A DNA stretch of 64,000 nt from Amoebophrya sp. A120 (Eukaryota; Protista; Dinoflagellata): NCBI GenBank assembly GCA_905178155.1, contig CAJINV010000004.1:814629-878628 (forward strand), written 5' to 3'. A model generated the notes under the pieces. That model saw only the letters and a program-made list of their open reading frames with translations. It had not been told where the DNA came from and did not search any database. Shown piece by piece: positions 7,476-62,300 of the stretch; position 1 is the first letter of the stretch; the number at the start of each line of letters is the position of its first letter. The position numbers and the translations under genes are program-made.

Positions 7476-7498
7476 GAGTATGGTAAGTCAGGGGGAGT

Positions 7499-9695: not shown

Positions 9696-9776
9696 TTCTT
9701 ACTTGCCCTTTGCCGCAAAGGGCAAGTAAGAAGTTTGCAGTTAGGTCGAACCTAACGCAAAGGCTTTGCGTTAGGT
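9696..9776. repeat. Cluster of perfect palindromes (18-bp and 13-bp arms)
   Basis: ttcttacttgccctttgc-c-gcaaagggcaagtaagaa (9696-9732) and acctaacgcaaag-g-ctttgcgttaggt (9750-9776). Confidence 0.9.
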
Positions 9777-11314: not shown

Positions 11315-11535
11315 AACGCCGACTGCTACGCCTACTTCTACTTCCACGCCTACTCCCACGCCTACCGCTACGCCTGCCTCTACGCCTACTGCTGCGCCTA
11401 CTTCTGCGCCTACTTCTACGCCTACTTCTACGGCTACTCCCACGCCTACTTCTCCGCCTATTTCTACGCCTACTTCTACGCCTATGAATGCGCCTAGTTC
11501 TTCCCCTACTCCTGCGCCTACTTCTACGCCTGCTG
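11315..11535. repeat. Degenerate 12-bp repeat (ACGCCTACTTCT)
   Basis: Tandem acgcctacttct/acgcctactgct variants within a GC-rich intergenic block. Confidence 0.8.
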
Positions 11536-16400: not shown

Positions 16401-19400
16401 CCGGCCGCTCCTGCTCCTGCTGTTTCGTCATCATCACCATTTCCGTGCGAGGCTTCACTTTCGACATCCAGTGGCTTTTTGTTACTTCGTTCCAAAGTTG
16501 AAGAAGTGGCAAACGCGTCGTTTAAATTCCCCTCCGGCCGTGCCGGAAGATCAACGCGCTCCACAACTGGTCCAGGCGGCTCGATGGCCGTTGGGCCGCG
16601 GTGCACTATCGCGGGCGTGGGGGGTTTTTCGTTGCCTTGAAGGCCCTCGTCGTGCTGATGATGATCACTTTCTTCGTGTCCAGCATGCTGACCAAGACCA
16701 TTTTGATCATGTGCAGCTGCTGCGACAACATCGTCCGCTACCACAGCTGCCAGCTCCTGCGCTTCTGGTTGTTGTTGATGCACGCCTGTCGATTGTTCGG
16801 CATCAGCCGGCGCAGCTGAGGGTTTTGAGGTCGAACTCGAACTCGCTACTGCTTTCGCCGGCGTGGTCCGATCCACAGCACTGGTCGGTGACGTACTACT
16901 CGTACTGCTGAAATCTGGCGCGGCAGCGGCACCTTCGGAGGATGCGGCGGAGGATTCATCGGACAGGAGTTGCAACTCGCCAACAGCGCCGAATAAGGTG
17001 TCCTGTCTCTGTTTTTCATCATCCGAAAAATGAGTTGCAGGTCGCTTTCCCACAGGACCGCGCTCTTGCCCCGCCGCATTCATTTTTTTCCTGTTCTCGG
17101 TTGCTCCATCGGTCTTTCCACCATCTCCACCAGCTTTCGCCACCGGTTTGTTCGCAGTAGAAGGCGGGCTTGTACCCGTCGTTTTTGTAGTACCTCCCCC
17201 GCCCCCGCCCGGGACTTGAGCTTGTGACGTGGAGGCAATTTTCTTTCCAGCCGGTGCTGGGTGAGCAGCACTAGCATCCGCATCCTTCTGGCGCGGCACG
17301 GTCAGCGTTTGGCCAGCTGCTGGTCCTACTTGATCATCGCTTACGCCCGCCTCCTGGTGCAGCGACAAGTGGTCTTCTGTGTTTGCAGCGACCCCTCGTC
17401 GTCCGCCGTCGGCAAAAAGAGCAGTAGTATGGCCAGATGGGGGTGCAGGTGTAGCTGTAGGTGCGGCAGGAGATGAACTTGAAGACCCTCCCGACAGTTC
17501 TTCTGTAGTCCTTGCGATAGCTGCGCCGGATCTGTCATCTTGCTTGTCTTCGACACTACTCAAAAACGAGGTTTGTTCCTCGTCATTTTTCTTCACGGCA
17601 GCATCTTCTGGTGCACCAGGGCCGAAAGCTTCATCGGTGGCAGTCGAAGTTCTTTGCGGTGAAGATGTTTCGTATCCTCGCGGGATATTCTCGGCTCCCG
17701 ATGCAGCTCCTCGTCCCGCGCTGACTTCATCTTCAGTCGTCGAGGTCGGCGAGCGCAGCATGCTTTTCTGGCCACTGTAAGCACTGTCATCTGCGCTACC
17801 AGCAGAAATTCCGTCGGTCGAATCCACGGCTGGAGCATCACCATTAGACAAGCTCCTTTCCGATTCCAGGGCCAAAGCCGACGTGCTCTTCGAAACATCT
17901 CGTCCAGCACCAGCTCCAGGTGGGTCGTTTTTACTACTTTCTATGGTACTCGAAGATGATGAAGCGGGTCGCTCTACTGCACTGATCCCACCTCCATGAC
18001 CACCTTCGTCCCAGCCGAACAGGGAAGCGAGCACTGAGGTGGTTACTGTAACCAGAGTTCTCGCGACGCTATCCTGGGGAGCCCCCGCGGCAAGCGCGCC
18101 GGGAGTCGAGCTTGTTTGCGCAAGGGAGCCTGCTTCTGCTGAAGTGCCGCGATTGCTGTCGCCCGACGATGAAGACGAAGAACCCAGCGAAGATGGCGGC
18201 CCCGGGTTCGACGTCTCCACCAAGGCGACTGTACGTCGGGGCTCGCGCCGCAACATTCTCTGCCGCGCGTCAACCAGCAGCATGCTGCACAACAGGACCA
18301 AGAAAAGCTTCATCACATTTTTGCTAGCTGGGGAAAATAAACCCGCCCAAGAGGTAGAAGAAGCAGGCATGACGCTCAACATCTCCCCGGTGCCGCGTGC
18401 CGCATTTTTCTTGCCGAGCGTGCTGGTCCCGGCCACGACTTCCGTAGCGGGTCCCCGGGAGATGGCCGGATGTTGATCTCCAAGCACATGTCTTACTGAG
18501 CGCTCTTCATCATCTTCGTGAGTGCTATGAGTGCTGCGTTTACTGTTCTTCTTTTTGTTTCTCTTCCGGTTTTTGTAGCTCAGCCCCTTCTGGTTTGTCG
18601 TTGTTGTTCTTTCTCCCCGCTGCATAACCTCGTCCTTCCCTTCGACAGATGAAGCAGCACTAGGTAGATGAGCCGTGCTGGTGGTAAGAGACGGCGCGCC
18701 AGCAGGTGGACGTAGCCCAGAAGTAGTTGCTGGTGGACTGTTCGGTCGCAGTACTGACGACAGTACAGTACTAGCCACTTCTGTAGAGCGATTGGACCCG
18801 CCACCGCTTTGGGTGGACGTGGAGGTCCCAGTCGCACAACTTGTGGTGATCTTGTGTCGCAGAACCTCCTCTGAACAAGTTGTAGACGCGCAGTCTTCGC
18901 TTCTGGTAAAAAAGTTGCTAGCACGCGAGCAACTGGATGCGATGGTGCGAGTCACGAACTCGGGACAAAAGCTCCTGGAGCAGCTCTTCATCGAAAAGCG
19001 CGCGGCTCTTGTCAATGCAGCTGTCATAATGTTGGATGAAAGTTGTCGCTCAGTAGAAGCCTGCAGTCGTCCCTCATCTACTTCACGTTGCGTGGTGGCG
19101 GAGGTGCTGCTCGACGCATCCTTGACACTACGCTGTTGCTCTGGTGGGGGCGTGACGTCCTGCGTAGAGCAACGGGCTGTTGTAGTCGTTGGAGCTCCAG
19201 CGGTGGAGGACAAGCTAGATTTATTCTTGGCGTCATCTTTTATTTACAGCTTGGACGCCCATGAGATATAGGGGCGGTGAATTTCAAGTGATTTTAGAGG
19301 TGGCGTAGAATCGCGGGGCCGGTCTTTCGGGTGGTTATGGTTCACGGGGCAAGGGCTAGCACAAATAGAGGTGATGGCGACACGGGGCTCGTCACCACGG

Positions 19401-21333
19401 CTCCCTCACATTGATTGCAATCCCCGTCCCGGCAACGCCCAACCGACCACATTTTTCCGCGTCTTTTTTCGCGAGGCAAGTCTTTTGGTGGTTTCATGAC
19501 TTTCTCCCTGCTTTCTCCACAGTTCAACTTCAACGTTTTAATTTTGGACAACAAAATCGCAAAAAAACGGCACTGCCATCGGGAAAAGCTTTCATTTAAA
19601 CATCATTCCCCATGGTATGATGAGGATGCATCTTTTGCTAAAAATCACCGATGTGGAGTGCCGTGCTGTTTCGCCCCAAAAACCAGCTTTAAAGTACCCC
19701 CTTTACCGATGGTATGCTGCGATCGGTGAATTTGGCGGTGAATTTAGAAATTGGTGGGCGGTGAATTTAGGAAATTTTTGCAATTTCCTAAATTCACCCC
19801 GACCTGATTCTGGATTCCAGACCATCACCAAATCAACACTCATTTTGCATTCATTTCTAAATTCACCGGAGTCGGAAAACCACACTCAAAACGATCGCCG
19901 CGCATTTGCTTCAGAAAATGCGAAACATTTGGCGCATGCACGCACAAATACAAAACCAACAAAATGCAAGCAGCACGCCACAAGGGCAGGCGAGGCATTG
20001 AATTGCTATGACTTCTTGCCGCAGCAGAAGGCGTGTGACAGATCAGGCGCCCGAGCCCGACAAGCCATCCGAAGCACTCAGAAAACAAAAATAACTGCGC
20101 GAAGCTATTTCGCAACCCATCATCCTAGGGGTGGGGCGCTGACAATGCAACTACACACTGAGGCGCCCCATCCCGGCCTTTTCTTTGCTGGAAAAATTCC
20201 GCCACCACCGGAAGCCTTTTGGAACTTACGTCGCTACGACTATTCCATCGGGTGGATGTCGATAATTCCGGGAGAAAATATTCGCAGCGCCACCTATCAA
20301 ATTCTTGCAGACCCCTAAAATCACGCGAAATTCACCACAGAGAAATCTAATGGCCATCCAAGCTGTAATCTTTTATTGGATTAGTCCCTCTACTTTCTTC
20401 AGATGACTTTGCTTTCTCGTCCGGTAGGACACTTTTTATCGTTCCTGTCCCTGCTGTCTGCGTCCGCTCCGTCGAGAATGCGGATTGCAGTCTGGTGCTG
20501 GTTGAGCTCCTCCTCCTCGTCGATACTGATGATTCCCCTTGTTCTTCCGCTTTCGCTTCATCTACTGCGATTTGCACTACCGGGAACTCGACCACGTCAC
20601 AGCTTTTTCTTCGTTGGTGATCCGCCGAGCTCGAAGGTTGTTGCACTGCGACAGCGTCTGCGTCTAATGAAGAAGAAGGTGTGCATACAATGCCCCCGCT
20701 GCCCATATTGCTACTTCTACTGATGCTCATCCCCCTCGGCCCTTTATTTCCCTTTTTACCTTGTTTATCTTTATGCTTTCTACTACTGCGCGCGCCGGAC
20801 TGCTTCTTGTCGTCGTGCCTTGACGCTCCCAGCACCGGCGGCTTCACTTTATTTCCCTCATGTGGCGCTGGCGGGGGACAAGCTCGCTGTGTTTCATCCT
20901 TCTTCACCTCAACCAAATGCTCCACAAGTGCGTCCTCAAACGCATGATCTTCTTCTTCGCCTTTCCCATACTCACACCCGCCACGTCGCGCTTGATTTTT
21001 CCGGCGTGCCGACGTGTGAAGTAGATGACCTGTGGATCCTGATCCAGCACGAAGAAGATTATTTCTGTGGTCACCTCGTCCAATACCTCCGCTGTTCCTT
21101 TTACCACAGCAAAGTCGCGCAATTGCTGTCCGCGCGTGAACGAGCAGGCTGCTGACGAGCTCGCGCAGCGACTCCAGCAGACTCGCAAACAGCCAGAAGA
21201 AAACTTCATAGAGTCGGGCAAGTACCCTTTTCGCAAAGTGGAGACTCGCAACTGAGTTTCGCTCCTGTGTTCGGCCGCGCGCGCCTAGGGATTCGCGTGC
21301 TCGTGCTTCGCTCTTGTTGTAGTTGCGCACCAT
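13453..21333 (-). CDS. Giant low-complexity hypothetical protein (~2,070 aa) with hydrophobic/signal-like segments
   Basis: Exons 21333-20368, 19234-16276, 16073-13822, 13491-13453 total 6216 nt and stay in frame. Joins: TNPIKD|DAKNKSSLSSTAG (1.1-kb TIR element removed) and DAFG|LVAELRR (GT-AG intron 16074-16275). The frame is open upstream to an acceptor at 21432, so the true start may be further 5'. The last intron is uncertain. Confidence 0.6.
13497..13821. mobile_element. Degenerate family D-like introner
   Basis: Right end reads tattgcgcggaaaaaaaaatccctccccac on the minus strand; left end cattcgcgaaaaagaaacttcttc. TSD not conserved. Element plus 5 nt is 330 nt and keeps the frame, but the ORF also reads through it. 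Confidence 0.4.
19245..20367. mobile_element. 1.12-kb non-autonomous TIR element with 8-10-bp TSD, inserted in coding sequence
   Basis: Imperfect TIR of about 65 bp (tacagcttggacgcccatgaga...ggtgaatttcaagtgattttag versus reverse complement tacagcttggatggccattaga...ggtgaatttcgcgtgattttag). Direct repeat atcttttatt at 19235-19244 and 20368-20377. Internal 17-bp-arm palindrome at 19760-19798. Confidence 0.85.
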
Positions 21334-41417: not shown

Positions 41418-42294
41418 TGTCGTGTACAGAAAGTTAAAGTAGAATCAGAATGATCCTAATTGAGTGTCAGCAGGAGTGAAAGAGTGTCAGCAGGAGTGAA
41501 AGTAGTCACTCCTGCTGAAAATAGCAATCCGAATCCCGTTGATCCTAAGAAGAACTTCCTAAATTCGTTAATACCTTGCATCTTCATGATCATGCTGCAG
41601 TCGCGCGCTACTTTCCGGTATTACACAGGGCGACGCAATCAATTCCATATCGCTCAAAAGAAACATGAGATGAAGCGGAAAACTTCTACACTCAAGTACG
41701 ATTTGCGACTTTCGACATACATAGAAGATAACAACTACGAAGTGAGTTTAGTACCTGTACCATCCTCGGCAACAGATGTTTCCGCTGCCGCGCTGCAAAG
41801 ACCTGTAGAAAAAACACTGCAGCACACGCACACGGGCGGAGACGGAACTCAACAAATTACAAGCCCACGCCGGCACGCGAAAACTTTTTTTGGCACCAAG
41901 CACACTTCTGCTTGATGACGTTGAAAAACTTTTACAAGTAGAAGAACTTCGTTTGGAAAATTTTTGCTCCACCCCCAAGCCAAGAACTTGTCCGAGATTT
42001 TTGAGCATTGAAATTCAATTCAAGCCGCAGTACAAAAATGTGTAGTGCCGCATCAACTACGTACGTGGTCGTGGTCGGAAGATTTTAAGTAAAAGTAAAT
42101 TCAGAAATACGTCGCCTTTGAAAAAATCTAAAGCCAAGGAAAGTTGTCATTTGTGAAAGAAAGCACGAAATACTAGTGACGTCCTCAGACTTTTCCACTG
42201 AGCCGCCGCAACGCTGGTGAAGTCCGGCTCCAGTTCCAATTGCAAGAAATCGTGATGAAACTACAAAACTATCGAAAAACGGAAACACATTTTA

Positions 42295-45200: not shown

Positions 45201-48200
45201 AGGCTGCGCAGCGTCCGGGGCTCGTTCGACGGGAGAGAGGCGATGACGGTGTCTAAAGGCAGGTCTTCGTGGTCGATTAAATTACTGATCCGCTTTCCAA
45301 ACAGCTCGTCAGGATGATCCTGATCGTTCTCACTGCTTTCGACGTGAAGATTCACCGTGTCGGTTTCATTGACATTCTCGTTGCTGTTTACGCGCTTCGG
45401 CGGTCCGTGTTCTCTAATTGATGCGGTAGATCTTCCCGCATGTTGACAAAACGCCGCCATCTCGACGTCCACAGCTTGGTGCTTGTTCAACATCTTCCGG
45501 CTCGTCGTGTCACCATCCTCTTCGAAATAACTCCTGCTTCCCGAGCGGAGTTCAGATAATAACTGCTGCGAAGTGGCGGGCGGCCGGGAATCTATTTCAT
45601 CCAAACCCGTCAAATAAAGCTGCGAAGTACTAGAAGATGAACTTGCCTTCCCGATTGCCCCACCAGTCGCCAGGAATTCTTGCGTTTTGTTCGACCGCAA
45701 TCCCTGCAACACGCTCGCATTGGATTTCAGCGGGAACTCGAAGTTTTTCTTTTTCCCGGACCAACAAAGTAACGGCGTCTTGCTGGCGGAGAAGGCGGAG
45801 GAAGAGTTCTGGCAGGAAGATTTCCGCGGAATTCCGGGCCGGTGCAACTTCTTGCTCTTTGGATGAATCATGGCAACTCCTTGAACAGCAACAGCGGCAG
45901 CTCCAGGTCCAGGTGCAGAAGTGCCCATGGTTGTATAATTCTGCTTCTTTAACGGCACCCCCTCCACCACCACACTGGCACACGAACTTGTTGAACCGCG
46001 TCGCCCACGACCTGCGTAGTCGTGCCCACTCGACGTGTTCGAGTTTCGCTTCAACAACATCGTCGTGTTCCTGGCAGCTGCGTCAAGATCTAGTACATGA
46101 TCCTCCTCGGCGCCGCTGCTGGACAAGTCGGAGGATGTTTTCACTTTCTTCCTCTTTCTCTGCGACATGGTCGTGGTCATGATCTGTTGCTGCGCAATCG
46201 CCCCGGCAGAATTGGAATGCGACGTCGTGGTCCCACTGGTCCCAGCAGGGTATAAATGGTTCCGTAAGTCGCTCGCATTCAGCATTATGGATGTGTCACC
46301 TTTGAAATCGTCAAAGTTGAAATAGTTTGTCATGCATAAAACGGATACCAGTTAGACCTACAGTTTGTAGTCGGTGCATGGCAAATTTTCCCGGTCCTGG
46401 AAGCGAGTCTGTCATGCGGTTTAGGGCAAAAGAGCTGCCTTCTGTCATGCTAGTTAGCAGTCCAACTTTTGACCCTTACCAGGACTATAATCTGCCTCCC
46501 TTGGGTCCTCTGCAATAGAGTCACTTTTTGTATCGCATTTTATGCATTACAAATTATTTCAAGTTTGACGATTTCAAACCTGACGCTTCCATAAGCATCT
46601 CGCGTTGCGTACACAACGATAACCCGCGAACCGACGAGAATCAACTGTAAAAATGTCTGGGTCTGGAAACTTGTGATGCTGGGTGGCGTCTCATGATGAG
46701 GCCACAAATGCTGGCTCAGCATGACAAGTTTCTGAGCTTCTAGGTGTTGCCTATTCTGCATGACAAACTGCGTTCTTGCATCACAGAAAAATGGAGCTCT
46801 TGGGTAACGTGCATGACAGATTTAAGAGTCATGCCAGACAAGCATGACAAACATGCATTCTTCCAGACCCAGACATTTTTACATTTGATAACGAGAATTC
46901 GGACGCAAACTCGATCTTCGCACGGTACCGCGACTCTTTCTCCACGTTCAGCATCGAGGCCAGCTGCATCATCAATCGCTGGACCCGTTTGTCGGTGATC
47001 TGGGACTTGTTGTCCGCGGTTAAATTCCTCGCGATCGCGTCGTCTGAAGATTTGAAAATCCGGTGTAACTGCGGGATCAACAAGTCCAGGATCTCGAAGT
47101 TGCAGTTGTGGAAGAACCAGTGCTTCTGCATCTGTTTCTGTTTATTCTGTGCAAAAGTATCATACTCTTACAAATGCATTACAAATTTTCTCAGAATGAG
47201 ACATGAAATTTGTAATGCTGATTTACCTTGAGGAAAAGATTTGTAATGCATGACTGCATTACGAGTACGATACTTATTTTGCACAGGATACTGTTGCGCC
47301 TTGGACAAAATCTCCGCCTGGCACAGCGCGCGGTGGAGCAGTAAAGAGTGGTGCTTCGCGGAGTCGTAGACGGAGAGGTAGTGATACAGCGGCGTTTATC
47401 CTGAGAAAAAACACCCCCACCCCATAGACATAGTCAAGATGGGAAAGCTGCTAGACAAATCAGCCAGCTTTGGTTGTTGCGCATGACAAGTTTGGCCTCG
47501 TAGTGTGATTCTGTTTAAATTGTTCAGCAGCATCACAGAAGATCTGGCCTATTATACTGATTGAAGCATTACAAATTCCAAAACACGACCAGAAAACGCT
47601 TGGCATAGGGCTCCGCATGAGAAACATCTTGAGCATGCAGAATTGCATGAGAGCTATGGGGTGGGGACGTTTTTGCATTTGATAGCGTGATCGTCGTGCC
47701 GTTGATGAAGATCGTCAAGAGTGCGATCCCCGAGACGTGAAACGCGATCCGCGCCCGCGTACCAAATGTAAAAATGTCTGGGTCTGGAAGGATGCGAACT
47801 CGTCATGCAGCTTTTCCATGACCCATGAGGTCTGGAATGCAGGACCTAGCATGACAGATTCTGCGCGATCTCTTTCATGCCTATCCTGCATGAGAAACTC
47901 CCTCGCGGCTTGGTCAAAACTGGACGACTTATGGTAATCATGCAACACAGATTTTTGCATGCTTCAGATTTAGCATGACAAGTTGCATTCTTCCAGACCC
48001 AGACACTTTTACATTCGATACCGCGTCTCTAACGGCAACACGGTCGAACTCGTGTCTATGGGATTCTCAAACGTTTCATTCTCAACTGTTACATGAATTT
48101 GCGATGCGAGAATAGCAAAAGTGAGAGGAGGGATCGTGCGCGTCTTGCATGACAGATTTGGCGCCGATTATGAGCCTGCTTGGCCCTCTGGGAATTTGTC

Positions 48201-51071
48201 ATGCGAAGCAGCTTGATGGTGTCGATTCTGAAGGCAATTTTGCATGACAAATCATGTAACAGTTGAGAATGTAACAATTGAGAACGCCATAGTGTCGGAT
48301 TCGACCAAAATCGCCATCGCCAACCCAACCGCACCGCGTAAACCGCTGTACACGAGAATGATGCACTCCTTCATGGTCATGCCGTATCCGGACCTTTTCA
48401 AAAACGGGTACAAGACCGCCACGACAATGGCTCTCGTCAGGTGCACCAAAAAGTACAGCACGATCAGTTCGATCCAGTCTCGGGGGAGCAAATTGGCCTG
48501 GAAACTGTAGCGGTACCCCACCACGCCGGCGAGGACGAAGATCAACTCGTTGGACACCAACGCGAGAAACGCGATCACGGTGTGGTGCGAGTGCGCGTGC
48601 TCGCCCGCGATGCTGTACTGCCCCGTGGCGGACATTGCGAAGCCGAAGGTAACGATGGCGAGAACGGCCGACACCTCGATGTCGTGGTGGTCCGCGACGA
48701 AAAAGGTCCCGTAGGCGCCGACAATCACGATAAACAGCCCGACCTGGTAGGACGACTCCTTATTGTTGTTGATGTTCCCCGCGTTTTTCGTCACATTCCG
48801 GAGCAGAAACAGCGTGATGCAGAAAGAAATGATTCCGACAAAAATGCCGCCGAACGCCAAATACGCAAACTGAAACGTGACATCCGTGAAGGAAAACGGT
48901 TTCAACCCCTTTGCGAGGTCGAGGAAGACCAGAAACAGCAGCACCCCCGACCCGTCGTTTAGCAGCGCTTCGCCGGAGATCAGTAAAGTCAATTTCGCGG
49001 GCGCGTGAAGGTTGTGCAAAGCGCCAATGACCGCGACGGGGTCGGTCGCGGAAAGGATGGCACCGAGCAGGAGCGCTTCGGAAACCGTGAACCCCTGCCA
49101 GGAGGAGGAGGTGGAGGTGGAAGAAGTCGCAGCTAGGAGGCGGTTGGTGCTGTGTGTAGAAGAGGTTTGGCTCACGCTGAACGCTGTTGGCCCGTTTTCG
49201 TCTTGGTGTACTTCTTGCTGGGTCGTTTCTGTTCGCTGTTGTAGAAGTTGTTCCTGCTGCTGCAATTGTGGAGGGAGAAACACGAGTGAGCCCTGTTCCG
49301 GAATCAACGAGGACAACTCATTCGCGGCATTGGGAATGGTTCCCATGCTGGACGACCTTGCGGTAGTGAAAGGCGTACTGGAAGTAGAACCCGTAGAGGT
49401 AACACTCTCCGCCGCGTCCGCGAAAGCGCTCGAAGCGGTAGAGGGAAAGGGAGGCACTTCTGAATCCAGATCCATTGACGTAGAAGATCCTGGTAGCAAC
49501 GTCCCGGTACTAGCACCAGCTGGCGCGGCTCCACTCGGGCCGACCACCATTCCCTGTGCTGGTCCAGCTCCTGCTCCACCCGGAATTATGGTATAATTAC
49601 TTCCAGCTCCAAAAAACGTAAATTTTCCGAAGGTGAAGTACAAAAACGCCCCGGTCAGCACTGTGTTCAAAATCGCGCCGGGTAAGGCCAGCAGCAAACT
49701 GTTCGGCAAAACCCTCCTGCCCACGTGCCAAATGGTCTTCGCGGAGTCCTCATAGAGGAGCGCCGGGAGCAGAATCCAGAAGATCACTTTTGGGTCGATG
49801 TTCTGCGCCACTTCAACCGCTTCGGAAATTTCGTAATCCGGGCAAACGGAGGAAAAGTGGGACAGGAGCAAGCCCGCGCAGTACAACATGACGGAGTGCG
49901 GAAAGTCGAAGGGCAGGACTTTGTGCAGAACGTCCTGCAGCATCTGGCAGCAGGCGGAAATGAAGAGAGCGAGGAGAACGAAATAGAGCGGGTAAAATGA
50001 CCGGGACAGGATGTGCGACTCCGTGTGCAAGGTCTGCTCACCGTGGACCCTCATAGATGCGCGCTGCTGGAGTAGTCCTCCACCTGCTCCGCCGGGAGCT
50101 ATCTCTCCACCGCCCGCCGCTGCAGCTCCTCCGGAACCACCCTCAGCGTTCGCAGCAGCTGCTCCCGAAGATATTAATGCGATATTTTGCACATTTTTGT
50201 GCTCGTGCAGATAACTGTAGTCGACGAGGCAAATCGCTAGATAAGATTTGTAGTTCCGGCTGCGGTCCCGTGCGTCCGTCTTGGTTTGCAAGTACAATTT
50301 CGACGCTTGTTGGTCGTAGTAGCACCCCGCGTGCTTCATCAAATCCTGGGGTGTTTCTTCCAGGGGCTCCACGGTCAGGAGGAAAGACTTCGTGTGCGGG
50401 TCGACGGTTCTGCGTCTCAACCCAAGTTCGTAGTTCGCGACCCGGGCGCATTCTTCCGCGGTGAGAATTTGAAATTCGTGGTCGCACCTCTCGGGCGTTA
50501 GGTGGTACAGCTTGCTCGTCGGCGCGGTGGAAGGGGAAGAGATAGAATCTTCAAGAACCTCCGACGTGGCCGCAAGGACATCCCTTGTACCAGGTGATAG
50601 ATTTCGCCTTGCTCGTCCAACAGTGACGAATGGATTGGTGCTGCCCTCGTTCGTTTCAGAAATGCCACTGTGTCCAGCCGCCCACGATGATGAAAGTCGT
50701 GGTCGAGGTGGCCCTCGTGCTGACCCGGAAGCTGCAGCACGATTTCCCTTGCTCTTCCAAAGCAACAGCACCGGTGAGAGCAGCAAGCAGAGGGACAAGA
50801 GGGAATAGATCCCAGAACGAGTTTTCGAACAAGACTGATGCTTCGCCATCATTTTCAACTCCATCTTCGGTGATGACAATGCATTCACTCGCCACACAAT
50901 AAGTAGATACCCGGCAACAGCGAAAAGGATCAACTTGACAACCGATTTATTTCTTTGTCTCTCGGGCGGGGGGGGGGGGGGTGGTGAGCGTATGATTTTC
51001 AACAATCTTACTCGCATTCTCTCAGCAACAGACGATGTCGAACAACAAAATGAAGATTTTACATCCCGCAT
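42295..51071 (-). CDS. CPA1-family Na+/H+ exchanger (SOS1/NhaP-like), ~2,249 aa, 8 introner introns
   Basis: LLPALLYE, GAILSATDPVAV, LISGEALLNDG, SGLRGAVGLAMA motifs. Exons 51071-48292, 48051-48021, 47754-47685, 47391-47291, 47137-46891, 46633-46594, 46280-43706, 43457-43411, 43153-42295 total 6750 nt and recover the last TM helix IAFHVSGIALLTIFINGTT. Confidence 0.9.
43159..43410. mobile_element. Introner family A, 252 bp
   Basis: 30-bp TIR; TSD gcctc; joins ALMEA|FEYAQE. Near-identical reverse complement of 46639-46890. Confidence 0.95.
43463..43705. mobile_element. Introner family A, 243 bp
   Basis: TIR tatcaaatgcaaaagtgtctgggtcgggaa; TSD gtaca; joins YSELY|ELQVIS. Confidence 0.93.
46286..46593. 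mobile_element. Introner family B, 308 bp
   Basis: ~55-bp TIR; TSD agcat; joins QREML|NASDLR. Confidence 0.93.
46639..46890. mobile_element. Introner family A, 252 bp (opposite orientation to 43159-43410)
   Basis: TIR aatcaactgtaaaaatgtctgggtctggaa / tatcaaatgtaaaaatgtctgggtctggaa; TSD acgag; joins SEFS|SVRGL. Confidence 0.95.
47143..47290. mobile_element. Introner family C, 148 bp
   Basis: TIR tattctgtgcaaaagtatc / tatcctgtgcaaaataagtatc; TSD ctgtt; joins SKAQQ|KQMQKHW. Confidence 0.92.
47397..47684. mobile_element. Introner family D, 288 bp
   Basis: tatcctgagaaaaaacacccccaccccatag / tatcaaatgcaaaaacgtccccaccccatag; TSD gcgtt/gcgtg; joins NGTTIT|PLYHYL. Confidence 0.88.
47760..48020. mobile_element. 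Introner family A, 261 bp
   Basis: 31-bp TIR; TSD ccgcg; joins PLETR|ARIAFH. Confidence 0.93.
48057..48291. mobile_element. Introner family F, 235 bp
   Basis: ~40-bp TIR tatgg..ttctcaa....cattctcaactgttacatga; TSD gtgtc; joins VESDT|SSTVLP. Confidence 0.9.
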
Positions 51072-51827
51072 GGCGTTTTTTGCTGCTTCTGCTTCCCGAA
51101 TGCGCGGCGAACTAGAAAATGTACTTCTAGGTCTGCGTCAAGTTCAAGAACTGTGGAAAAAGCAAAACATAAAGAAATTCGAGATCCCCATGAATCACTT
51201 CGCGAGGACCAACTCCCCTGCTCCGTATCCAGACGAAAATTATCAACATGCTGTCCTCGTGTAAAATCCCTCACGGTCACGGAGCCTGGAAAATAAAAGT
51301 TCGTCAGCTGCTTTCCAAATTGATTAGAAGCCATGATGAAGTGCTCGCGCGTGACAACACGTCAGATCTAGATCTTTCTAGTGGTCGGGGTTTGAAGATA
51401 ATAAAAGTCAAGTTTTGACTTGAATTTAGGGGGGAATACAAGAATGTCACGCATGCGAACTATTTTAACTAGTTTTTGTTTTTTGTTTTCAAGAGGGACT
51501 TTTACCTGTTTGATTTTGATTTGATTTTCTTTTGATTATTCACCCGTAGATGATTAGCTATGCGCGCAATAAGAACAACACTTCGGCCCTTGCCGTCTCA
51601 CCATCAAGAACCTCTCTACCCGATGAAGTAGACCTAATGAGGACAGGTCGGGGCTTGAAGATAATAAAAAAAAAAATAGTAATACTAAATGGGTGATGAA
51701 CTTCTTGCTGCAATAGAACACGACCGTCAGATAGAAAAAAGTAAAAGATCAAGTTAGGGTTAGCATAAATAGTATAAAAATTCTTCTTTGAACAAGGGGG
51801 GTGTTGGTCTTTGTTTGGTACTTTTCA

Positions 51828-52461: not shown

Positions 52462-55400
52462 CTACTCCGGGTAGTTACAAGTAGCTTCACGAAATCCACG
52501 CTTCGTAACGTACCTTTCAATCCTGTCGCGCCTGTTGTCCTCCTGCCAAGTTTCGGCCTCAGAGCGGAACTCCAAACTGTTGTGATAGGCCTTAAGAAAC
52601 GCCTTCTTTTCTCCTTCCGAGCTCGCATTCGCAAGCGACATCACCACGAGCCTGCCATTAGCATCAAGAACCTCCCGAAAGAAAAAGTGTTGCGAGCGAA
52701 AGACAAACTGAAAAAGGCCTTCGGTGTACAGTGCGGCGGCCCCCAGGGACAACAGGACACGCCGCCACATTGCTTCCGTAAGATGTTGCTTACGCTGCAA
52801 CCGCGAGTCCGCGCCAAATAAATTGGACGTCTTGGTGACCTTGGTGGTTGTAGTAGCCGCTCGCGACTGACTCGTCTGCCAGGAGTGCACGCGATCTATT
52901 CGTAAAAGCATGGGTTTCGCAAATTCGACGACGTCGCCAACTAGCTCGCTTCGCTTTTTTCTCGAACCATGTTCCTCCAACCGGCGAAGTTGAAGCACCA
53001 ACAACTCCGCGTGGGCGTCGTCGACGAGACCAAGTAGATGGCGATTCACGGTTTCTTGTGCTTCCTTCACGTAACACAAGTCAAGATAATTGCCTTGCCG
53101 CACCACGAATATCCCATCCGGGGTCGTGATCCGAGAGTTCTTTTCTTCTTTGCCAGGCCACATCAAACGTAAACCTAATGCGTCCTCGCGGCTCTCGGTC
53201 CTGCTTACTTTCTCGTCCTTGCTCTTCAAATCTCCCAAGACTTCCTTATCGAACCATGCGTCCTCATCGTGCGCGATTTCCTCAATCCGCTTTTTTATAT
53301 CTTCCGGGCTGATGTAGTAGCGCCACAATCTGTCCTCGAAGTCGTTTTCCAGATCTTGGAGCACTCCCGCAGCTAGCTTTTCACTGTGATGATACTCGAG
53401 CGCCTGTAACAGAAACACTGGCGTGAAATGAGGCGTGTCGCCCTCGATTTCGGATGTTGGGAGGACTCCGGCGTGTCGATATACTGTGCTGAGTTGCCCA
53501 GTCAGCCAGGATCTCAATTCACCGGAAGCGGACGCTCGCGCGGTGTGGAGACTGTCGGGGCGAAATAAACAGCTTTCTCCTTCATCTGCAATGACCCGCA
53601 CCGGTGAATATTGACCACAATAGAAAAAATTTCTCCAGTTACCTGCAGCCCCGTACGAAGTAACCCAGACGGCGCGCGCCAGAAGATGCGGCCTTTGTCG
53701 GAAGAGAACAGCAAGTGCTCCTTTGGCTTTTGTACCATCTGCATCACCCGTGGTCGTCGAGGAGGCGGACGATGTGGGCGCCCGGATAGCTTCGATTACT
53801 TCGACGCCCTGTTCTGTAATTTGGTTCTGGTGCGATTCTGGAAGTGCGGCGACCGCAATATCAACTCTCTGCCTTGGCACGCTTGCGAGATGCGACATGT
53901 CATGCTCTGCTTTGTCATTGTCCGTGGTTGTTCCCTTACCCTTGCTCTTTCCTCGTCGTTGTTGTTTTTCTTTTTGTTCGGCCAACACTTGTGTCTGCAA
54001 TGGCGCGCGCCATAAACCTCGAAGGAGGTCGTCTATGGAACTGTCGCCCTCGGACATCGTTTGCGTGGTAGCAACGACAGCATACAACTCGGACAGGCTT
54101 TGCAAGTAATCCGGATCGCTGGTGGCTAGGTCCACAGCCATGCCAAACGACACGAGTGCTGCAAGGCACTCAAAGTCACCGTTGAAGCCAACGCGACCTT
54201 GTGCTATTCCAGTAAGCCATTCGAGTCGGCCGGGTTCGACTCTGCAATCGCGCACCTGTCTCTTTCTTATGGTATCCTTTCTTGACGCCCACGCCCAGTT
54301 GTGACTCTGCGGACCATGCTGTGTGTCCTCGTAGTCGTGATGAAGTAGACGTACCTGACGGAAGTGGCTCATTGCTTCGAGATAGTTTATTTGCGGGGGC
54401 AATGTAATGGCGCCTGCCCAGGCCATCGCCAAGTTTCCGATCATGGTAGCGAGGGACACGATTGCCGATTTATCTTTGCCGGCCGCGGTGTCCAAGTGAT
54501 CACGACTGATTTTCCATCGCCATCGGTACTCACCGGCCGTTGCCGTAATGTGGGCGACCACGGGAAAATCAGCCAGATAGCGCTTGCTCCGTACTTGTTG
54601 CCTCATTTCTTCCACCAGCGCCATCGCCTCGTCTTGATCAGTTCTCTGCTGAGCAGTGTAATAATTATGCCCGTTAGGCTTTTCACTTGCTGTTGCTATC
54701 CAAAACACAGACTCCGCCTTTCCCAAAAGCACCCGCACTTCCGCGTCGATCCGGGATCGAAGACCAAGCGCAAGGACTGCAAGTTGCATGATGGCCTCTC
54801 GTTCCGAACTTCGGTCCACCTCTACTGCAAGCTGCTGGAGGGGTTGTCCACCTTTCCTTGCCCGTAATTCCAATTTCCGCCAGAGCTCAGAAAGAAACTC
54901 CTCCTTTGTTTAGGGCGGAAAAATCGGCAAATAGCATCATTTTTGTCAGCTCACACTTTGGGGGGGTATTTTTTTTTCTTTTGTCAGGGAGTCAACTACC
55001 TGGAAATCAACAGAAGTAAAGCATCACTTCATCTTTTCCACGAGAAACATGATAGCTCGGCTTTCAAAAGGCCTTCATAGCAAGACACGAAACAGGCGGC
55101 AGCGCCTTCGCGCTGTGCGTTGTCGCTCAGATGGCCCGGCAATGTTGAGTAGGCCCGCTCTTCGAGAAGTGGCTGGGCCACCTCCGGGACCGGACCACAA
55201 CGAGGACGCTCGCCACGAGGAAGAGGGAACCCGGCAAGGGGGGTGGTCAGGGGGGTGCATTTTTGCCCCCTTCGGACACCCCTTCCGGGTACCCCTTCCG
55301 GGTACCCTTTCGGTAGCCTATGCCGACCCCCTAATCCCCATTAGAAACTGCCGATTTTGCGTGCCCCAAAATGGTAGCCCAGAGGCAGCCCAAGCGCACC

Positions 55401-57467
55401 CCCTTACCCCCCCCCCCTTCGGCACCCCCCCGGAAGCATTTGACTGCTGGCGCGTCCGCATTCTCAATATCTGGCCGTAAAGGGAAGATGCGAAGATGTC
55501 TGGGCGCGTACGGAATTGGATGCCGGAGAGGGGGCGCGGCTTCCCGCGCCGGGGGGCCGCAGGCCCATGCAACTTCAACAAAATGCTGCGGCTCTATTGG
55601 AAAAAGGGGAGGGCCGGATGGCGGAACGTGACAACGAAGAGCGGCGCCAGCATCTAAATGGCCAACAGGAAAAAAAGCAGTAGCGACACCCCCAATAGCC
55701 ATAATTTTTTTGCCCCCCCAAAAAGTGCGCTTGCAAAAATGATGCTATTTGCCGATTTTTCCGCCCTAATTTGTTTCGATTTTGGTTAGAAGTTTTTTTG
55801 CATTTTATCGTAAGGAAAAATCTCCCCGCCCCATATCGAAAACGAGGCCACAGAAAATTTGCAGTGCTGATTTGTGACCACAAATCGTATTTGTCTTGCT
55901 GGAAGACAACTCCAGACAGGCTGCGCCGCATTATGCAAGCGGTTTGTGATGCTCGTGGGCCTACAGTGTGGACATTTGTAATGCTAGGCGTCTATGTCAA
56001 AACCTCGCTGCCCAGGGTTGGCATATGCCTGCAGTCCTCTACTGCAAGACCAATCTGATTTGTGTACGCAAATCCAGCATCACAAATTTTCTTTTCGATA
56101 TAGGGAGGGGGGATTGTTCCTTTTGATACATTTTGATCATCCCGTAGAAACCCAGTCGCCATCTCAATACGGCCAGGACCATCTGGAACTGTGGCGTCAG
56201 ATTCGAAGATCGTGAGGAACCTCTCCACGGCATGTTCGACGCGACCATCTACAACTCCGTTCGTTTTTGCAGTCGTCCCCCGCCCAACCAACTTCCGAAC
56301 CGCACGCGATAAATGCGTTATACTTTTACTTGTTCTTGTTTCCTCCACGAAGCTTGAGCCCACAAAACGATCAGCAGCCAGCGCACCACTCGCGCTGGTG
56401 CTATTGGCAACACCAACATGTTCAGCTATTGCGCCCTTTGTGCCTTCGTCGCCTTCGGGGTCCGCAGCGTCATCTTCTCGGCCGCCTGAAGCCAGACCGC
56501 GGTGAGAATCCTTTCCTCCACCCCTTGGCGTGGCAGGATCGTGTTCGCTGATCACGCCGGTAGCGTTGGAAGGTGTGTTTCCTGTACTATTTAGCGACTC
56601 TTCACGGGCCGCGACCAGTGGCTGTTTTCTGTCAACACCGACCCGCTCAGTCCCCGACTGGGTCGCATTTTTTGGACCATCTTCGCCCAGTTCATTGGCA
56701 GTGCGCCTCGGGTTTGCGTTGCGTTCCATATTAAAGTTAGCCCTGGCTCGTTCGTGTTCGTCCCGCTGAGACGGTTCTTCTTCTTGCTGCAAGGGTTGGC
56801 TCGCGTGGCTTACATTTGCCGAGAGAGCTGCGGGACCGTCGCTGGCAACGGGCGGACTAGAATCCGTACTTGCGTGGTGCGGCTCTTTTGCCACTAACTC
56901 GCTCTCGCTTTGCTTTTGCACCAACCTTCGTTTTTCAATTCCCTCGTCCCGCATCGTTGAATTCTTCTTGTAGTTCTTGTCGCGGCCGTTCCTGTTAGGT
57001 TCTCGCTGCTTCTTCCGTTCTTGCCGCCTCGATGACGAGGCCGCTTTCCGCTTCTTCCTACTTTTTCGCTTCTTGCGGTCCTTTTTTGCACGTCTTTTCT
57101 TCCGTTGCTTTCGATCCTTCTTCTTGTCTTCTTCCATGAACGCCATCTGCGAAATTTGTGATGGGGCATCTTCGTAGTCATAATGATAGGGACTTCTATC
57201 TTCTTCATCTCCGTGTCTGTGGTAAGCATAATCATCTGTGTCTGTCCACAGAACTTCATCAATGCGAGGTCCACGACGAACGGCGGAAGCATTGTAGGCG
57301 TACGCAAGAAAGAGCCTGCTAACTTCGCTGGAAGCAAACCAGAGTGAGATTGCGCAACGCATTAGTTGATGCATGATCTTCTGCCGCACGGGCAACAGGT
57401 GGCTTCCCGTCGCTTTATCTTTTGTTCCTGACAGCGACGAGGCCCAAGTGGCAGGAAACACGATCAT
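52462..57467 (-). CDS. Large hypothetical protein (~1,270 aa) with N-terminal hydrophobic segment and K/R-rich tract; 2 TIR-element introns
   Basis: Exons 57467-56129, 55800-55770, 54904-52462 total 3813 nt. The joins FLRDDQN|AKKLLTKIET|KEEFLSELWRKLELRARKG fuse the 491-aa and 803-aa track ORFs. No family recognised. Confidence 0.7.
54910..55769. mobile_element. 860-bp GC-rich TIR element (TTAGGG-starting termini, 5-bp TSD) in coding sequence
   Basis: Perfect 36-bp TIR ttagggcggaaaaatcggcaaatagcatcatttttg, extending imperfectly to about 60 bp. TSD tttgt at 54905-54909 and 55770-55774. Confidence 0.92.
55806..56128. mobile_element. Introner family D, 323 bp
   Basis: tatcgtaaggaaaaatctccccgccccatatc / tatcaaaaggaacaatcccccctccctatatc; TSD cattt. 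Confidence 0.88.
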
Positions 57468-59390
57468 GATGACGCCGTAAGCCGCTTCTGGTTATGCCTG
57501 GACTCGAAAGCTGTCGTGGACGAAGAAGAGCAAGAGTGGATTTCTTCCGGCTGCAAGACGCCCGTCACTCGACGAGGTCAAAGTTGCGCGACGAACGGCG
57601 TTCAAGAACGACCTGAAAAAAATACGCGTGAAAAACTTTTACCAACAGCCTGACTAATTAGTGCTCTGCCTGCATTTACAACTGCATGACTCGAGGCCAG
57701 CACCATAGGACTATGAAAATAGTAAAGTAAAAACTAAATAAAATAGCCACGCACTACATCAGAAGAGTCCCGCTCTCGCTAATATCTTCAAGATAATTAA
57801 AGATGGTGTTCCGGTGATAATATCATGCAGCATGAAGAAACAGAAACAGTGTACTTGCTTCCAATTCATCCAAGCTCGTTCCACGTATATTAAACTGGTT
57901 CCCCCGTGTCAGCAAGGTCCTGGTGTATGGTCGTGTAAGTTTAGCGCTCCTTTTTGGACTTCTTGACTCACCAAGCTCCTTGCTCCTGTAGTTGACACTT
58001 CAAATGGAGGCGATCGCCTGGTGTAACGGTCGCTGCAGCGTTGATGTGAGCTAATAGCTACAAATCGTCTTGTGTCTGTAATGCGCCAACTCCCGGTCCG
58101 TGGTTCTAGACCTAGAGTGTTCCACCTACAAAATTACCAACGACAGCTCAACGCAAGACCAGTACGCAGACTTTTGAAAATCCGACAAGGACAACAGCAC
58201 GCGATACGAAAATGGTTCTTGGAGAAATTCGAATTTTAATTTTATATAATTGGGTCAAAAACTTAAGTGTAAACGTGATTTCTTTCGTCTGTCGTGGTGG
58301 GGTGATCAAATGCAAATGCAAGCTATGAAGGTGTGTGTGCCTCAAGCTTCCGGCTGTAGTTGTGGTGGATCATGCATCTTTGTTTTTAAACCAACGGTCG
58401 TCGTTATCAATGGTAATGGCGACGTTCTTTTGCTGCTCGAAAGAGTGCCGCGGCTTGAACGAAAAATGTTGATACGGCTTCGTACGAACTACTCACGTGG
58501 CCAAGAACGACGTGGCTGGACGAACAGGAAGAACGTAGTAGCACATACTTACCGAAGACTTGTCCCACGTTTAGAACAAACGACCGAGCGGACGAGGCAG
58601 TGCAAGTGATCACTGCAGGCGCAGTGGGTTGATACAGAAATAAGCGGCCAACCAAAGTAGAGGGTCACGCATAGTACGATACCGATCTTCATCGTAAATT
58701 AGGATGAAAATTGGAGTACTAACTAACAGACACGACAACTTTGATGCGTGTCGCAAGGCCGGTAGACAATACATACAGGAGCAACGACAGCCTCACTGTC
58801 GAGTTTCTGTTAGAAGAAGAGAACCACAGTACTTTTTTTTCTACAGCATACAGAAACGGCGGAGCGTGAAAAATTTGTCAGCCTTCCAAATCGAGAAGTA
58901 GCCATGAACTGCTCGCACGTGATGCATCAGATGTCTTGTCAGATCTAGGAGTCGGGGAGGTTTGATACTAATCATAATTCATCAACAAATACTAAGCGGG
59001 TGATTAATTAATGCAATTGCTGCAATAGAAATAGAATGTGATTACCTGATAAAAAATAAAAAAGTAAAACTAAAACAGCAACAGCATCAAGAAAATGAAA
59101 ATATTTTGTGCAGGTAGTCACGCTACCCATAAAATTGTTGGAATAAGGGAATGTAATGTTTATGTTTGTTTAGTATTGTATGTTGTCCGGTGCAATTTCA
59201 ATCTTGGTCTGGACTTGGCTTGCTTAGCAGTTGGTCGACATAACAGTGTCAGTGAAAGAAAAGCAAATAGAAAAAAAAACAGAGGAGTAGTTCTTGTGAT
59301 GATATTAATGTGGAAAAACGAATGGTACTAAAAGCTTCGGGTTTGATGTCATACATTCAGCTCCAAAAACAAAAAGCGTTTTCCACTCCT

Positions 59391-62300
59391 CTACTCTCCG
59401 GACGAGTTGTCACTCTCGTCGTAGTCGATGCCACCTCCTCTACCTCCCTTGCCGCGCGCCCCGTTTCCACCTTTATTCTTGGAGGCCGCAACCGCCATAA
59501 TGCCGGCTGTGGTTAACATGTCGTCGTCATCGTCTTCCATTTCCAGATACCGGTCGCGACGGCGCCTCTTGCGCATCATCTTTTTTTTCATTTTCATAGC
59601 CGACGGGGCTTTCATCATCTTCATTTTCATCTTTTTTTTCATCGACGATTTGCTCATCTTCGCGGCCATCATTTTCTTCGAAGACGTAGAGTCGCCTTCG
59701 CCAGTACTAGACGAGGACCTGGTGCTGAAGAACCTGCGTCTTCTGGTCGTGTTCCGACTGGAAGAGTTTCCAACGCGCCGAGCCACCCGGTTTCGAACTA
59801 GCAAACCTCCCGCACGGGAAGCGGAAAGCGGCGTGACCAGGGTTTGGACCAAAACACCACGCTGCCCGCTTTGCAAGGGCCGCAGATTGGGGCGCGGCGC
59901 GGAACGCCCGACAGCTGCCATCTTTTTCATCATCATTCGTTTCCGCATCATTTTCGGGGCTGCAGCACGAGAAGACATCATTTTCATGCGCCGCGGTGAG
60001 TTCATTCGTCTTCTAGAAGCTGCAGACATTTTGGAAGTCGAAGTTGTTCTCCTCGAAGACATCATTTTGCTCGACATCATTTTCATCATTTTCCTGCGCT
60101 CGAGCTTCGCCTTCTTCGCTCGTGCGGCCGCGCGCATCTTCTGCCGTTGCTGCTCCTTCAGAAGCATTTGCTTTTGCTTCTTCAGCAACGACCTTTCCTT
60201 CTTCGCGGTCAGTGCGTGTTTCTTGCGGAGCTGTTTCTTCAACGCCGACACCTTCCGATAGGCGGTGGAAACGCGCTTCCGCAAGTTGGGTGGCAAGGTG
60301 TTTGAAGAAGAAGCTTTATTCGACACGGGCATTCTGGACAAAACTTTAACTTTCTGTCGCAGACGGTGCTTCAGCAACTTTTTCGTCCGCGCGAGCTGCT
60401 GGAGCTGCTGCCTGAACACCTTGCTGCGCTTGCGGTGCGCGGCGGTGGCTTTGTTGCTCATCTTCATCTTCATCACCATTTTTCGCGGTCGGGCAGCCAT
60501 CATTCGAAGCTTCTTCGCCATCGGGCTGGGCTCCTTCTTCATCATTTTCATTTTACCCATGTTTATCTTGCGCAACATCTTCATGGACATCATACAAGAA
60601 TTATGGCGCATTTTTGTGTATCGACCGGTCGACGGAGCTGGTGCTGCTGTTTTCATCTTCATCACGGACTTGCGCAGCATCTTCTTCATCGGCATGCTCC
60701 TGCGCATTTTCATCGTCTTCATGGAAGAAGTTGATGCAGCAGTACGGGCCTGCATCTTCTTCATCATCTTCATTCTCATCTTCATAGAAGTCGGCTTTGC
60801 CATTTTTGTTTTCCGGCCCATCGTTGTTTTCATGCTTTTCTTCATCGCCATGAAACTGCGTCCACTTTGGCTGCCCATTTTCATCGGCTTTTGCATCTTC
60901 ATCTTCATCATCTTCATCCTGGAGGATGACATCATCTTCATCGGACGGGAAGTAGACATCATCTTCATTTTGCGGGCCATTTTTCTTGGACGAGCGGTGC
61001 CTGGACGAGAGACAGCCTTTGATGCGGCGCGCATTCTCATCGCCTTTTTCATCCGCATCATCTTCCTCATCTTGCCCATCATAACGGTTTTCCTTGTAGC
61101 TGCAGAAATTCCACCGGCTTGTCCTCTCCGCCGCTGCAGAATGCGGATGCGCTGTTTGACCGCGTTGAGGCGCTCCTTTAACAATTTGTGTCGCAAAGCC
61201 ACAGCGAAGTTGACACCTTGCTGTTTGTTCCGCATCTTCATCAATTTTCCCCTGACTTGATACCGGTGCTTCTTCTTCGTCATCATCCTTTTCGCAGCGA
61301 TGCGCCGCACGAGAGCGTCCAGAGACTTCTGCTGGTTTTGCGGGAGCTTGAGTTTCATCATCTTGGTGCTTGATGATGATGTCGGCGATCGCTGCATCTT
61401 CATCGTCTGCATCCTTCTCGCAGCGATCCTCTTCACCAGTCGGTCGATGGCTGCTTTTTGGGATTTTGCCATTTTGCCCTTCTGCATCTTCTTGTGCGCT
61501 GCGATTCGGCGGACCAGCATGTCAAGCCGCTTTTGGTTTCTGATGGAAAGCTTCTGGCTTTTGCTTCCCCCGGTGGACTTTGATGTCGATGGTCTTCTTC
61601 CCTGGTTGTTGCTCTGCATCATCTTTTTCTTCGCCGCAATTCTCCGTACCAACATGTCGATTCTTTGCTGGTTCCGCACAGAGAGTTTCTTGTTTCCACG
61701 GGTACCGCCGGCCTTCTGCATCTTCTTCTGCCGCGCGATCCTGCGCACCAACATGTCAAGTCTCTTTTGGTTGTTGATGGAAAGCTTCTTTCCGGCTGGA
61801 AGTTTTTTCATTTTCCTGCTCTGTGCCGCGATCCTGCGCACCAACATGTCGAGTCGTTTTTGGTTTCTCAGCGAAATCTGTTGTGTCTTTTTCCGGCCTT
61901 TATTTTGCATCTTCTTGTTCTGTGCCGCGATCCTGCGAACCAACATGTCAAGTCTCTTTTGGTTGTTGAGGGAAAGCTTTTTTCCACCTTTCGATTGTTT
62001 CCCAGCAGCGGATTTCTTCGGCGTTTTCATCTTCGTCTGCATCATCTTCCGCTTGGCCGCGATCCTACGCACAAGCTGGTCAATGCTCGCCTTGGAAAAA
62101 TTTTGCTTCATCTTCGACATCGTTGTTCGTTTTGTTGTCCCCATTTTCGCTTCACCCTTCATCTTCGCTGCAATTCTGCGCACGAGCAGGTCGATCGAAG
62201 TGTTGCCGACACCGACCACCTTCTTGCCAGCCAGACTGCTTGATGTTCTCTTGCTGCTCAACCGGCCACGACTTTTCGTTTTCGCTGCTGCTGCCATTTT

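What the first reader, a model, noticed from the sequence alone, without database searches (positions are those of the whole stretch)
54905..55774. An unrelated 860-bp TIR element also behaves as a precise intron and fuses two separate ORFs
Seen: a perfect 36-bp TIR starting TTAGGG (not TATC), a perfect TSD tttgt and a GC-rich interior unlike the small families. Removing it plus one TSD, and the neighbouring 323-bp introner, joins the 491-aa and 803-aa ORFs through a 31-nt micro-exon. The 865 nt removed is not a multiple of three, so read-through is impossible. Inference: the removal machinery is largely sequence-independent, and this is a young insertion of a different family. The telomere-like TTAGGG terminus may be coincidental.
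Basis: partly seen in the sequence, partly recalled or inferred. Interest (0 to 1): 0.8.

Follow-up and report, generated by a model that had tools for sequence, protein, structure and literature searches.

The report
Hairpin-measured transposon intron in Amoebophrya
An 860-base transposon-like insert in a gene of a parasitic dinoflagellate is missing exactly from the gene's assembled transcript although it lacks normal intron ends, a kind of intron already described in this organism, and its neighbours suggest that the cell likely cuts such inserts at fixed distances from the hairpin formed by their ends.

Summary
Observation confirmed. 54910-55769 has a perfect 36-bp TIR and a 5-bp TSD. Contigs of three transcript-type runs (one sample) skip it (865 nt), the 323-bp neighbour (328 nt) and a GT-AG intron, with no mismatches; DNA-type contigs run into the element. 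No placement of the cut gives GT-AG. The fused 1270-aa protein is already annotated in Amoebophrya sp. A120, so this is a member of the known Amoebophrya introners (PMC7789003). The scan noted similar introns in other dinoflagellates.

'Sequence-independent' and 'unrelated' are overstated. What I add: of 12 non-GT-AG introns in two annotated genes here, 11 fit one geometry, 1 nt + a U...A/G-closed hairpin + 4 nt (chance mean 0.9). A 1125-bp element with an 8-bp TSD loses element + 5 nt, not + 8, adding a codon, as predicted beforehand. So hairpin geometry, not the TSD, likely sets the cut. I did not find this rule in print. It rests on 12 junctions, 10 of them from annotation only.

The parts
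54910..55769 (.). 860-bp non-autonomous TIR element acting as a non-canonical intron; intron 865 nt, 8 equivalent placements, 54906-55770 under the 1+4 geometry
54910..54945 (.). left TIR, 36 bp perfect (57 bp at 91%, to 54966)
55734..55769 (.). right TIR, 36 bp perfect (57 bp at 91%, from 55713)
54905..54909 (.). 5-bp target site duplication, left copy
55770..55774 (.). 5-bp target site duplication, right copy
55770..55800 (-). 31-nt micro-exon (55771-55801 under the 1+4 geometry)
   Evidence: 31 letters between the two joints in contigs of X3, X4, X5; predicted mRNA 5328 nt equals the X4 contig length
55806..56128 (.). 323-bp TAT-type introner of a high-copy family, 5-bp TSD; intron 328 nt
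56129..57467 (-). first coding exon part (446 aa) of the host gene
52462..54904 (-). last coding exon (814 codons with stop) of the 1270-aa orphan protein CAD7944071.1
57613..57854 (-). canonical GT-AG intron (242 nt) in the 5' UTR; its loss shows that the X4/X5 contigs are spliced RNA
19244..20368 (.). 1125-bp TIR element with TTA...TAA ends and an 8-bp TSD (19236-19243, 20369-20376); the annotated protein needs removal of 1130 nt (element + 5)

Best explanation
The 860-bp element is a non-coding inverted-repeat insert with a 5-base target duplication that is absent from the host gene's transcript, and it is likely a non-autonomous DNA transposon whose paired ends form a stem in the pre-mRNA that is likely cut 1 base before and 4 bases after the stem. 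SHOWN: TIR, TSD, other copies in DNA, exact absence from spliced contigs, no GT-AG placement, intact 1270-aa frame. INFERRED (about 0.9): insertion by a transposase acting in trans with a 5-bp staggered cut; no parent was found. INFERRED (about 0.6): removal is set by a ruler on the terminal stem (N, then U...A/G stem, then NNNN) plus a short end code, not by the TSD or the family. Element + 5 nt is always lost, so a 5-bp TSD is restored exactly and an 8-bp TSD leaves one extra codon. INFERRED (about 0.45): the catalyst is a modified U2/U5/U6 spliceosome in which the stem replaces the missing U1; the invariant U falls at intron position +2 as in GU and AU introns.
For: Splicing: X3 contig, 5336 nt, joints 54904>55770 and 55800>56129, 0 mismatches. 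X4 and X5 contigs (5328, 5297 nt) have the same pieces and also skip the GT-AG intron; 5328 equals the predicted mRNA. X1 and X2 contigs run unbroken from the flank 34 nt into the element and through the GT-AG intron. P0001 equals the predicted protein at 1270 of 1270 residues. Stem: the fold closes the 36-bp helix, z = -9.4 on 20 shuffles. Ruler: of 14 junctions in P0001 and P0002, 2 are GT-AG. Of the other 12, 11 fit 1+4 and 10 fit 0+5, while the mirror image 4+1 fits only 4; chance mean 0.88, maximum 6 in 5000 draws. The twelfth (335 nt) fails only at the third pair. The 8-bp-TSD element is reproduced only by removing 1130 nt; the idea came before that call but was written down just after it. 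Seven of the 11 match at 3 or fewer of 5 TSD bases and still lose element + 5. U1 was not found in A25 or A120 (PMC7789003, section 10).
Against: RNA evidence is assembled contigs of one sample; the tool labels their RNA status a guess. The joints table was cut (14 rows hidden), so the absence of the joined form from DNA rests on unbroken contigs. Ten of the 12 junctions rest on one annotated protein, not on reads seen here. 1+4 is separated from 0+5 by one junction only (394 nt). I scanned 90 geometry cells; the next best off the 5-nt diagonal scored 7 of 12. Three older introns have weak stems (z -0.8, -1.2, -2.0), so pairing alone cannot explain them. PMC7789003 calls the splice sites variable relative to the hairpin and reports direct repeats of 3-5 nt. 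Automated TSD calls of 3, 4 and 6 bp for some A120 families (PMC12130899, supplement file 8) would frameshift under a fixed rule. Selection for an open frame could alone keep a +3 outcome at the 8-bp element.
Confidence: 0.8

Rival explanations
1. Removal is guided by the direct repeat (TSD to TSD), not by a ruler: the element plus exactly one TSD copy is lost, whatever its length.
For: Fits both RNA-supported junctions of this gene and the 1452-nt intron, all with perfect 5-bp TSDs.
Against: The 8-bp-TSD element loses +5, not +8. Seven of 11 fitting introns match at 3 or fewer of 5 TSD bases.
Confidence: 0.1
2. The same geometry is processed by a non-spliceosomal structure-specific nuclease and ligase, as proposed for euglenid nonconventional introns.
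For: No conserved 3' AG and no common branch motif. Euglena introns also use paired ends with a longer 3' overhang (PMC12501133, abstract and discussion) and are released as circles (PMC11282704, section 6).
Against: Nearly all spliceosome proteins and U2, U4, U6 are present (PMC7789003, section 10); U at +2 is invariant in 12 of 12. No direct test here. This rival disputes the catalyst only.
Confidence: 0.4
3. A short sequence code at the ends (T-A-T ... A-T-R) fixes the cut and the long stem is only a transposon relic.
For: Older introns keep TAT...ATA/ATG ends while their stems have decayed.
Against: The 860- and 1125-bp elements change positions 2-3 on both sides together (TTA...TAA), which keeps pairing but not sequence; T-G closes two introns.
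Confidence: 0.25
4. The element is a gene-disrupting insertion, and the joined contigs come from an empty allele or another strain.
For: The run type of X3-X5 is only guessed; they are another sample than X1/X2.
Against: The same contigs lack a GT-AG intron, stop at 58378/58347 where DNA contigs go on, and have 0 mismatches in the listed exon pieces; X1/X2 contigs do not branch at 54904.
Confidence: 0.03

Closest known systems
Introner elements (non-canonical introns) of Amoebophrya sp. A25 and A120 (Farhat et al. 2021, PMC7789003)
   Same: Same organism by protein identity; RNA-supported non-GT-AG intron, inverted ends, short direct repeat, repeated, no transposase inside; already in the gene model GSA120T00015553001.
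   Different: Much longer than the 240-nt A120 mean; perfect TIR of 36 bp against the 8-20 nt reported; starts TTAGG (their A25-type motif) in a genome whose families they describe as starting TAT. They call the cut position variable; here it looks fixed.
Long TIR introner families of A120 in Gozashti et al. 2025 (PMC12130899, supplement file 8: fam38, fam196, fam99, fam26, fam71, fam103, fam65, fam86)
   Same: Low-copy TIR elements of about 630-1620 bp making non-canonical introns; fam38 has a 5-bp TSD, fam65 an 8-9-bp TSD.
   Different: None of the 58 rows lists 860 bp; fam38 has TA/TA ends. The rows carry no sequence, so identity with fam196 (811 bp, TIR 54-57) or fam99 cannot be excluded.
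Euglenid nonconventional introns (Nomura et al. 2025, PMC12501133)
   Same: MITE-like origin, paired ends, fixed spacers, 3' overhang longer than 5' overhang.
   Different: Their code is N3-CDG ... CHG-N5-6 then a purine; here N1-T ... A/G-N4. Unrelated lineage.
MITE-derived introners of Aureococcus and Fritillaria (PMC9860276 passages; PMC11282704 section 6)
   Same: TIR + TSD elements removed as introns; insertions can add residues in frame.
   Different: They carry or co-opt defined dinucleotide splice sites; here no dinucleotide pair is conserved.

Membership tests
Amoebophrya introner element (PMC7789003) | RNA-supported intron without GT-AG ends | tested here: met
   none of 8 placements is GT-AG, GC-AG or AT-AC
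Amoebophrya introner element (PMC7789003) | inverted repeat pairing the two intron ends (8-20 nt reported) | tested here: met
   36 bp perfect, longer than the reported range
Amoebophrya introner element (PMC7789003) | 3-5-nt direct repeat at the boundaries | tested here: met
   5 nt
Amoebophrya introner element (PMC7789003) | repeated elsewhere in the genome | tested here: met
   DNA-type contigs of about 87-99% identity over parts of the element, depth above flank; flanks of other copies not seen
Amoebophrya introner element (PMC7789003) | no internal transposase gene | tested here: met
   7 of the 18 stop-to-stop frames (the longest inside the element) scanned; no Pfam family reaches its cut-off
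A120 TAT-type introner families | IR starts TAT, 7 free bases, then at least AAA | tested here: not met
   starts TTA; the A-run at 11-13 is present. Not filed under these families
Non-autonomous TIR DNA transposon (MITE-like) | TIR, TSD, several copies, no coding capacity | tested here: met
Non-autonomous TIR DNA transposon (MITE-like) | autonomous partner with the same TIR; superfamily | not testable with these tools
   no genome held; TIR scans of metagenome and viral contigs found no true copy
U2/U12 spliceosomal intron | GT-AG, GC-AG or AT-AC ends | tested here: not met
U2/U12 spliceosomal intron | lariat intermediate, snRNP dependence | not testable with these tools
   only contigs cover the locus
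Euglenid nonconventional intron | N3-CDG ... CHG-N5-6 signature | tested here: not met
   read by eye from the 8 placements
Telomere-bearing element (recalled, no call) | tandem telomeric repeats at the ends | tested here: not met
   one hexamer only

The most novel reading that the evidence does not exclude
Amoebophrya A120 has one geometric splicing code, N | U...A stem | NNNN, that turns any TIR transposon with T...A ends into an intron, whatever its family, length (220-3225 bp here) or TSD. It removes element + 5 nt, so it restores 5-bp TSDs exactly and tolerates 2-, 8- and 11-bp TSDs as one- or two-codon indels. The reported absence of a splice signature would then be an alignment artefact of the TSD, the code would filter which transposon superfamilies can live in exons, and it would be a route to the rapid protein change seen in this parasite.
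Probability: 0.55. Interest if true: 0.72.

Novelty: new member of a known kind. Interest (0 to 1): 0.45.

Why it matters
The element itself is one of tens of thousands of known A120 non-canonical introns and is already in the gene model. Its value is as a long, differently ended test case. How these introns are removed in an organism with no detected U1 is an open question, and the published view is that they have no clear signature. A fixed 1+4 offset from the terminal stem would give a concrete code that existing RNA-seq can test in a day, would fix annotation of over 60% of the introns, and parallels the Euglena code in an unrelated lineage.

Tried and rejected
No whole genome is held, so no genome-wide copy or parent search was possible. 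Raw-read RNA runs X7-X9 gave 0 reads laid: no test. No listed holder is on record as RNA. TIR scans: 26-mer, 0 hits in metagenomes; 20-mer, 2 hits with no further similarity, inside an ORF, rejected as chance; 0 in viral contigs. Rfam: 4 miRNA-type matches far below gathering score, rejected. Pfam on element frames: best E 0.006 and 0.09, below cut-off. Host protein: no Pfam family and no relative but itself, so no orthologous empty site. The first search for the second gene at 'near' length found nothing; 'longer' found it. The protein atlas gave no answer. The gene and genome accession are absent from supplement file 3 of PMC12130899, which seems not to cover A120. The excess of xT donors in that paper's tables was not used as support: aligner preference inside a TSD can produce it. 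A loose TIR+TSD scan found 12 in the window against 0-7 in 20 shuffles, so its weakest hits were not trusted; its ORF-fusion column is uninformative where introns are adjacent. Telomere link rejected.
Full report
1. Observation. The element spans 54910-55769 (860 bp). Its first 36 bases are the exact reverse complement of its last 36, and the arms extend to 57 bp at 91%. TTTGT flanks both ends. A perfect 36-bp pair is expected about 4e-14 times by chance. The neighbour 55806-56128 has TAT-type ends and a 5-bp TSD. Removing 865 and 328 nt opens a 1270-aa frame on the minus strand; every partial or alternative removal tried stops at 457-491 aa.

2. It is removed from RNA. Six listed runs hold the stretch or part of it, in two studies. 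In X3 one 5336-nt contig joins 54904 to 55770 and 55800 to 56129 with 31 letters between and no mismatch in the listed pieces. X4 and X5, the same sample, give 5328- and 5297-nt contigs with the same pieces plus a third gap, which is a 242-nt GT-AG intron in the 5' UTR. The predicted mRNA is 5328 nt, the length of the X4 contig. X1 and X2 behave as DNA: their contigs run from 51611/51576 to 54938, 34 nt past the joint into the element, and from 56060 to 58600 through the GT-AG intron. Limits: contigs only, one RNA-type sample, run type guessed by the tool, and 14 rows of the joints table hidden. Three raw-read RNA runs laid no reads, which is no test. None of the 8 placements of the 865-nt gap is GT-AG, GC-AG or AT-AC.

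3. It is already annotated. The only relative of the host protein is P0001, named Amoebophrya sp. A120, CAD7944071.1, identical to my prediction at 1270 of 1270 residues. It has no Pfam family and no other homolog among 1.84 billion representatives. Its function is unknown and no empty orthologous site could be examined.

4. Family. The interior resembles nothing else in the window, encodes no recognisable protein and matches no Rfam family at threshold. In X1, summed depth is 245-1126 over the element, about 42 on the flanks and 30,000-50,000 over the neighbour. The tool warns that this is no copy number; it still separates a small family from a very large one. Pieces at 99% and at 87-89% identity point to a few close copies and older ones. 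No autonomous parent could be sought. The ends are not wholly unrelated to the small families: T...A termini, a 5-bp TSD, an A-run at 10-14, and a 9-mer shared with the neighbour's TIR (10 of 63,969 window positions do as well; noticed after the fact). PMC7789003 (section 11) gives TAT-N7-AAA for A120 and TTA-purine-purine for A25; this element has the A25-type start in an A120 gene.

5. How the cut is set. A second long element, 19244-20368 (1125 bp, TTA...TAA), has an 8-bp TSD. If the TSD guided removal, 1133 nt would go; if a ruler on the stem did, 1130. Both keep the frame. The annotated 2998-aa protein P0002 is reproduced only by removing 1130 nt. Gene models in that paper were built from transcript alignments (section 25). 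I then took all 14 junctions of P0001 and P0002: 2 are GT-AG and were set aside, 12 are not. Asking for a T and three closing pairs at i bases from the donor and j from the acceptor, over 90 cells, 1+4 fits 11 of 12, 0+5 fits 10, 2+3 fits 8, the mirror 4+1 fits 4, and the best cell off the 5-nt diagonal fits 7. Random positions give 0.88 on average and at most 6 in 5000 draws. The twelfth intron fits with a mismatch at pair 3. Elements range from 220 to 3225 bp, and 7 of the 11 have largely decayed or non-5-bp TSDs. The asymmetry follows the direction of transcription, as an RNA-level process should. Against: 10 junctions rest on one annotation; one junction (394 nt) separates 1+4 from 0+5; three old introns have weak stems, so a short end code must contribute; published automated TSD calls of 3, 4 and 6 bp do not fit, while the three manual ones (5, 5, 8-9 bp) do.

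6. Mechanism. A transposase acting in trans likely inserted the element with a 5-bp staggered cut (inferred). In the pre-mRNA the TIRs are predicted to close a long helix. Cutting 1 nt before and 4 nt after the helix removes element + 5 nt and restores the exon (net result shown; offsets inferred). I favour a modified spliceosome in which the helix replaces U1 in bringing the ends together: U1 was not found while most other components were (PMC7789003, section 10), and the invariant U sits at +2, a position conserved in spliceosomal introns (own knowledge). A Euglena-like separate machinery is nearly as likely.

7. Literature seen. PMC7789003: abstract, sections 10, 11, 12, 16, 25, 32, supplement passages. 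PMC12130899: passages, all 58 A120 rows of supplement file 8, legends in file 1. PMC11282704: passages and section 6. PMC12501133: abstract, introduction and discussion. PMC12005148, PMC11453091, PMC9860276: passages. Seven searches showed no paper stating a fixed cut offset for Amoebophrya; PMC7789003 calls the position variable. Subscription papers and figure images were not seen. Earlier notes of this scan describe similar introns in other dinoflagellates; none on this genome or sequence. They are unchecked and not used as support.

8. Verdict. Real, spliced, and a new member of a known kind that is already in the public gene model. Interest 0.45, carried by the fixed-geometry rule (probability about 0.55, interest 0.72 if true).

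Noticed in passing
window 19244-20368: 1125-bp TIR element with TTA...TAA ends and an 8-bp TSD, probably another transposon superfamily; the annotated protein keeps 3 of the duplicated bases (one extra codon). It has an internal palindrome at about 19736-19868.
   Followed up: yes
window 2391-21333 (-): One annotated 2998-aa orphan gene (P0002) with 12 introns: 10 non-canonical (225-3230 nt) and 2 GT-AG. Four are over 1000 nt, outside the length window analysed in PMC7789003.
   Followed up: yes
window 9053-12277: 3225-bp TAT-ended intron holding 19-bp and 12-bp tandem arrays and a possible nested 1107-bp GG...CC-ended element (9668-10774) with a 5-bp direct repeat.
   Followed up: partly
window 22917-23447, 36925-37231, 43159-43705, 46286-48291: At least ten more small TAT-ended elements of several families, most with perfect 5-bp TSDs; not tested against RNA.
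   Followed up: partly
window 33076-35044: Complex tandem arrays with 27-, 16- and 30-bp units; may lie inside another long element.
   Followed up: no
window 54917-54925 and 55814-55822: The TIRs of the 860-bp and 323-bp elements share a 9-base word one position apart; may be a common transposase-binding or splicing signal.
   Followed up: partly
window 55002-55763: Transcript-type runs hold contigs of other, diverged copies of the 860-bp family, up to 614 nt: retained copies or excised introns.
   Followed up: no
window 51400-51640: A second transcript-type contig overlaps the 3' end of the host transcript (from 51616) by about 25 nt, suggesting convergent genes with touching ends.
   Followed up: no
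window 28003-30018, 39393-41417, 48252-51071: Vps4-like MIT+AAA ATPase, SWEET-type sugar transporter and Na+/H+ exchanger by Pfam.
   Followed up: no
window 59391-63869 (-): 1492-aa low-complexity ORF with internal repeats and no Pfam family.
   Followed up: no
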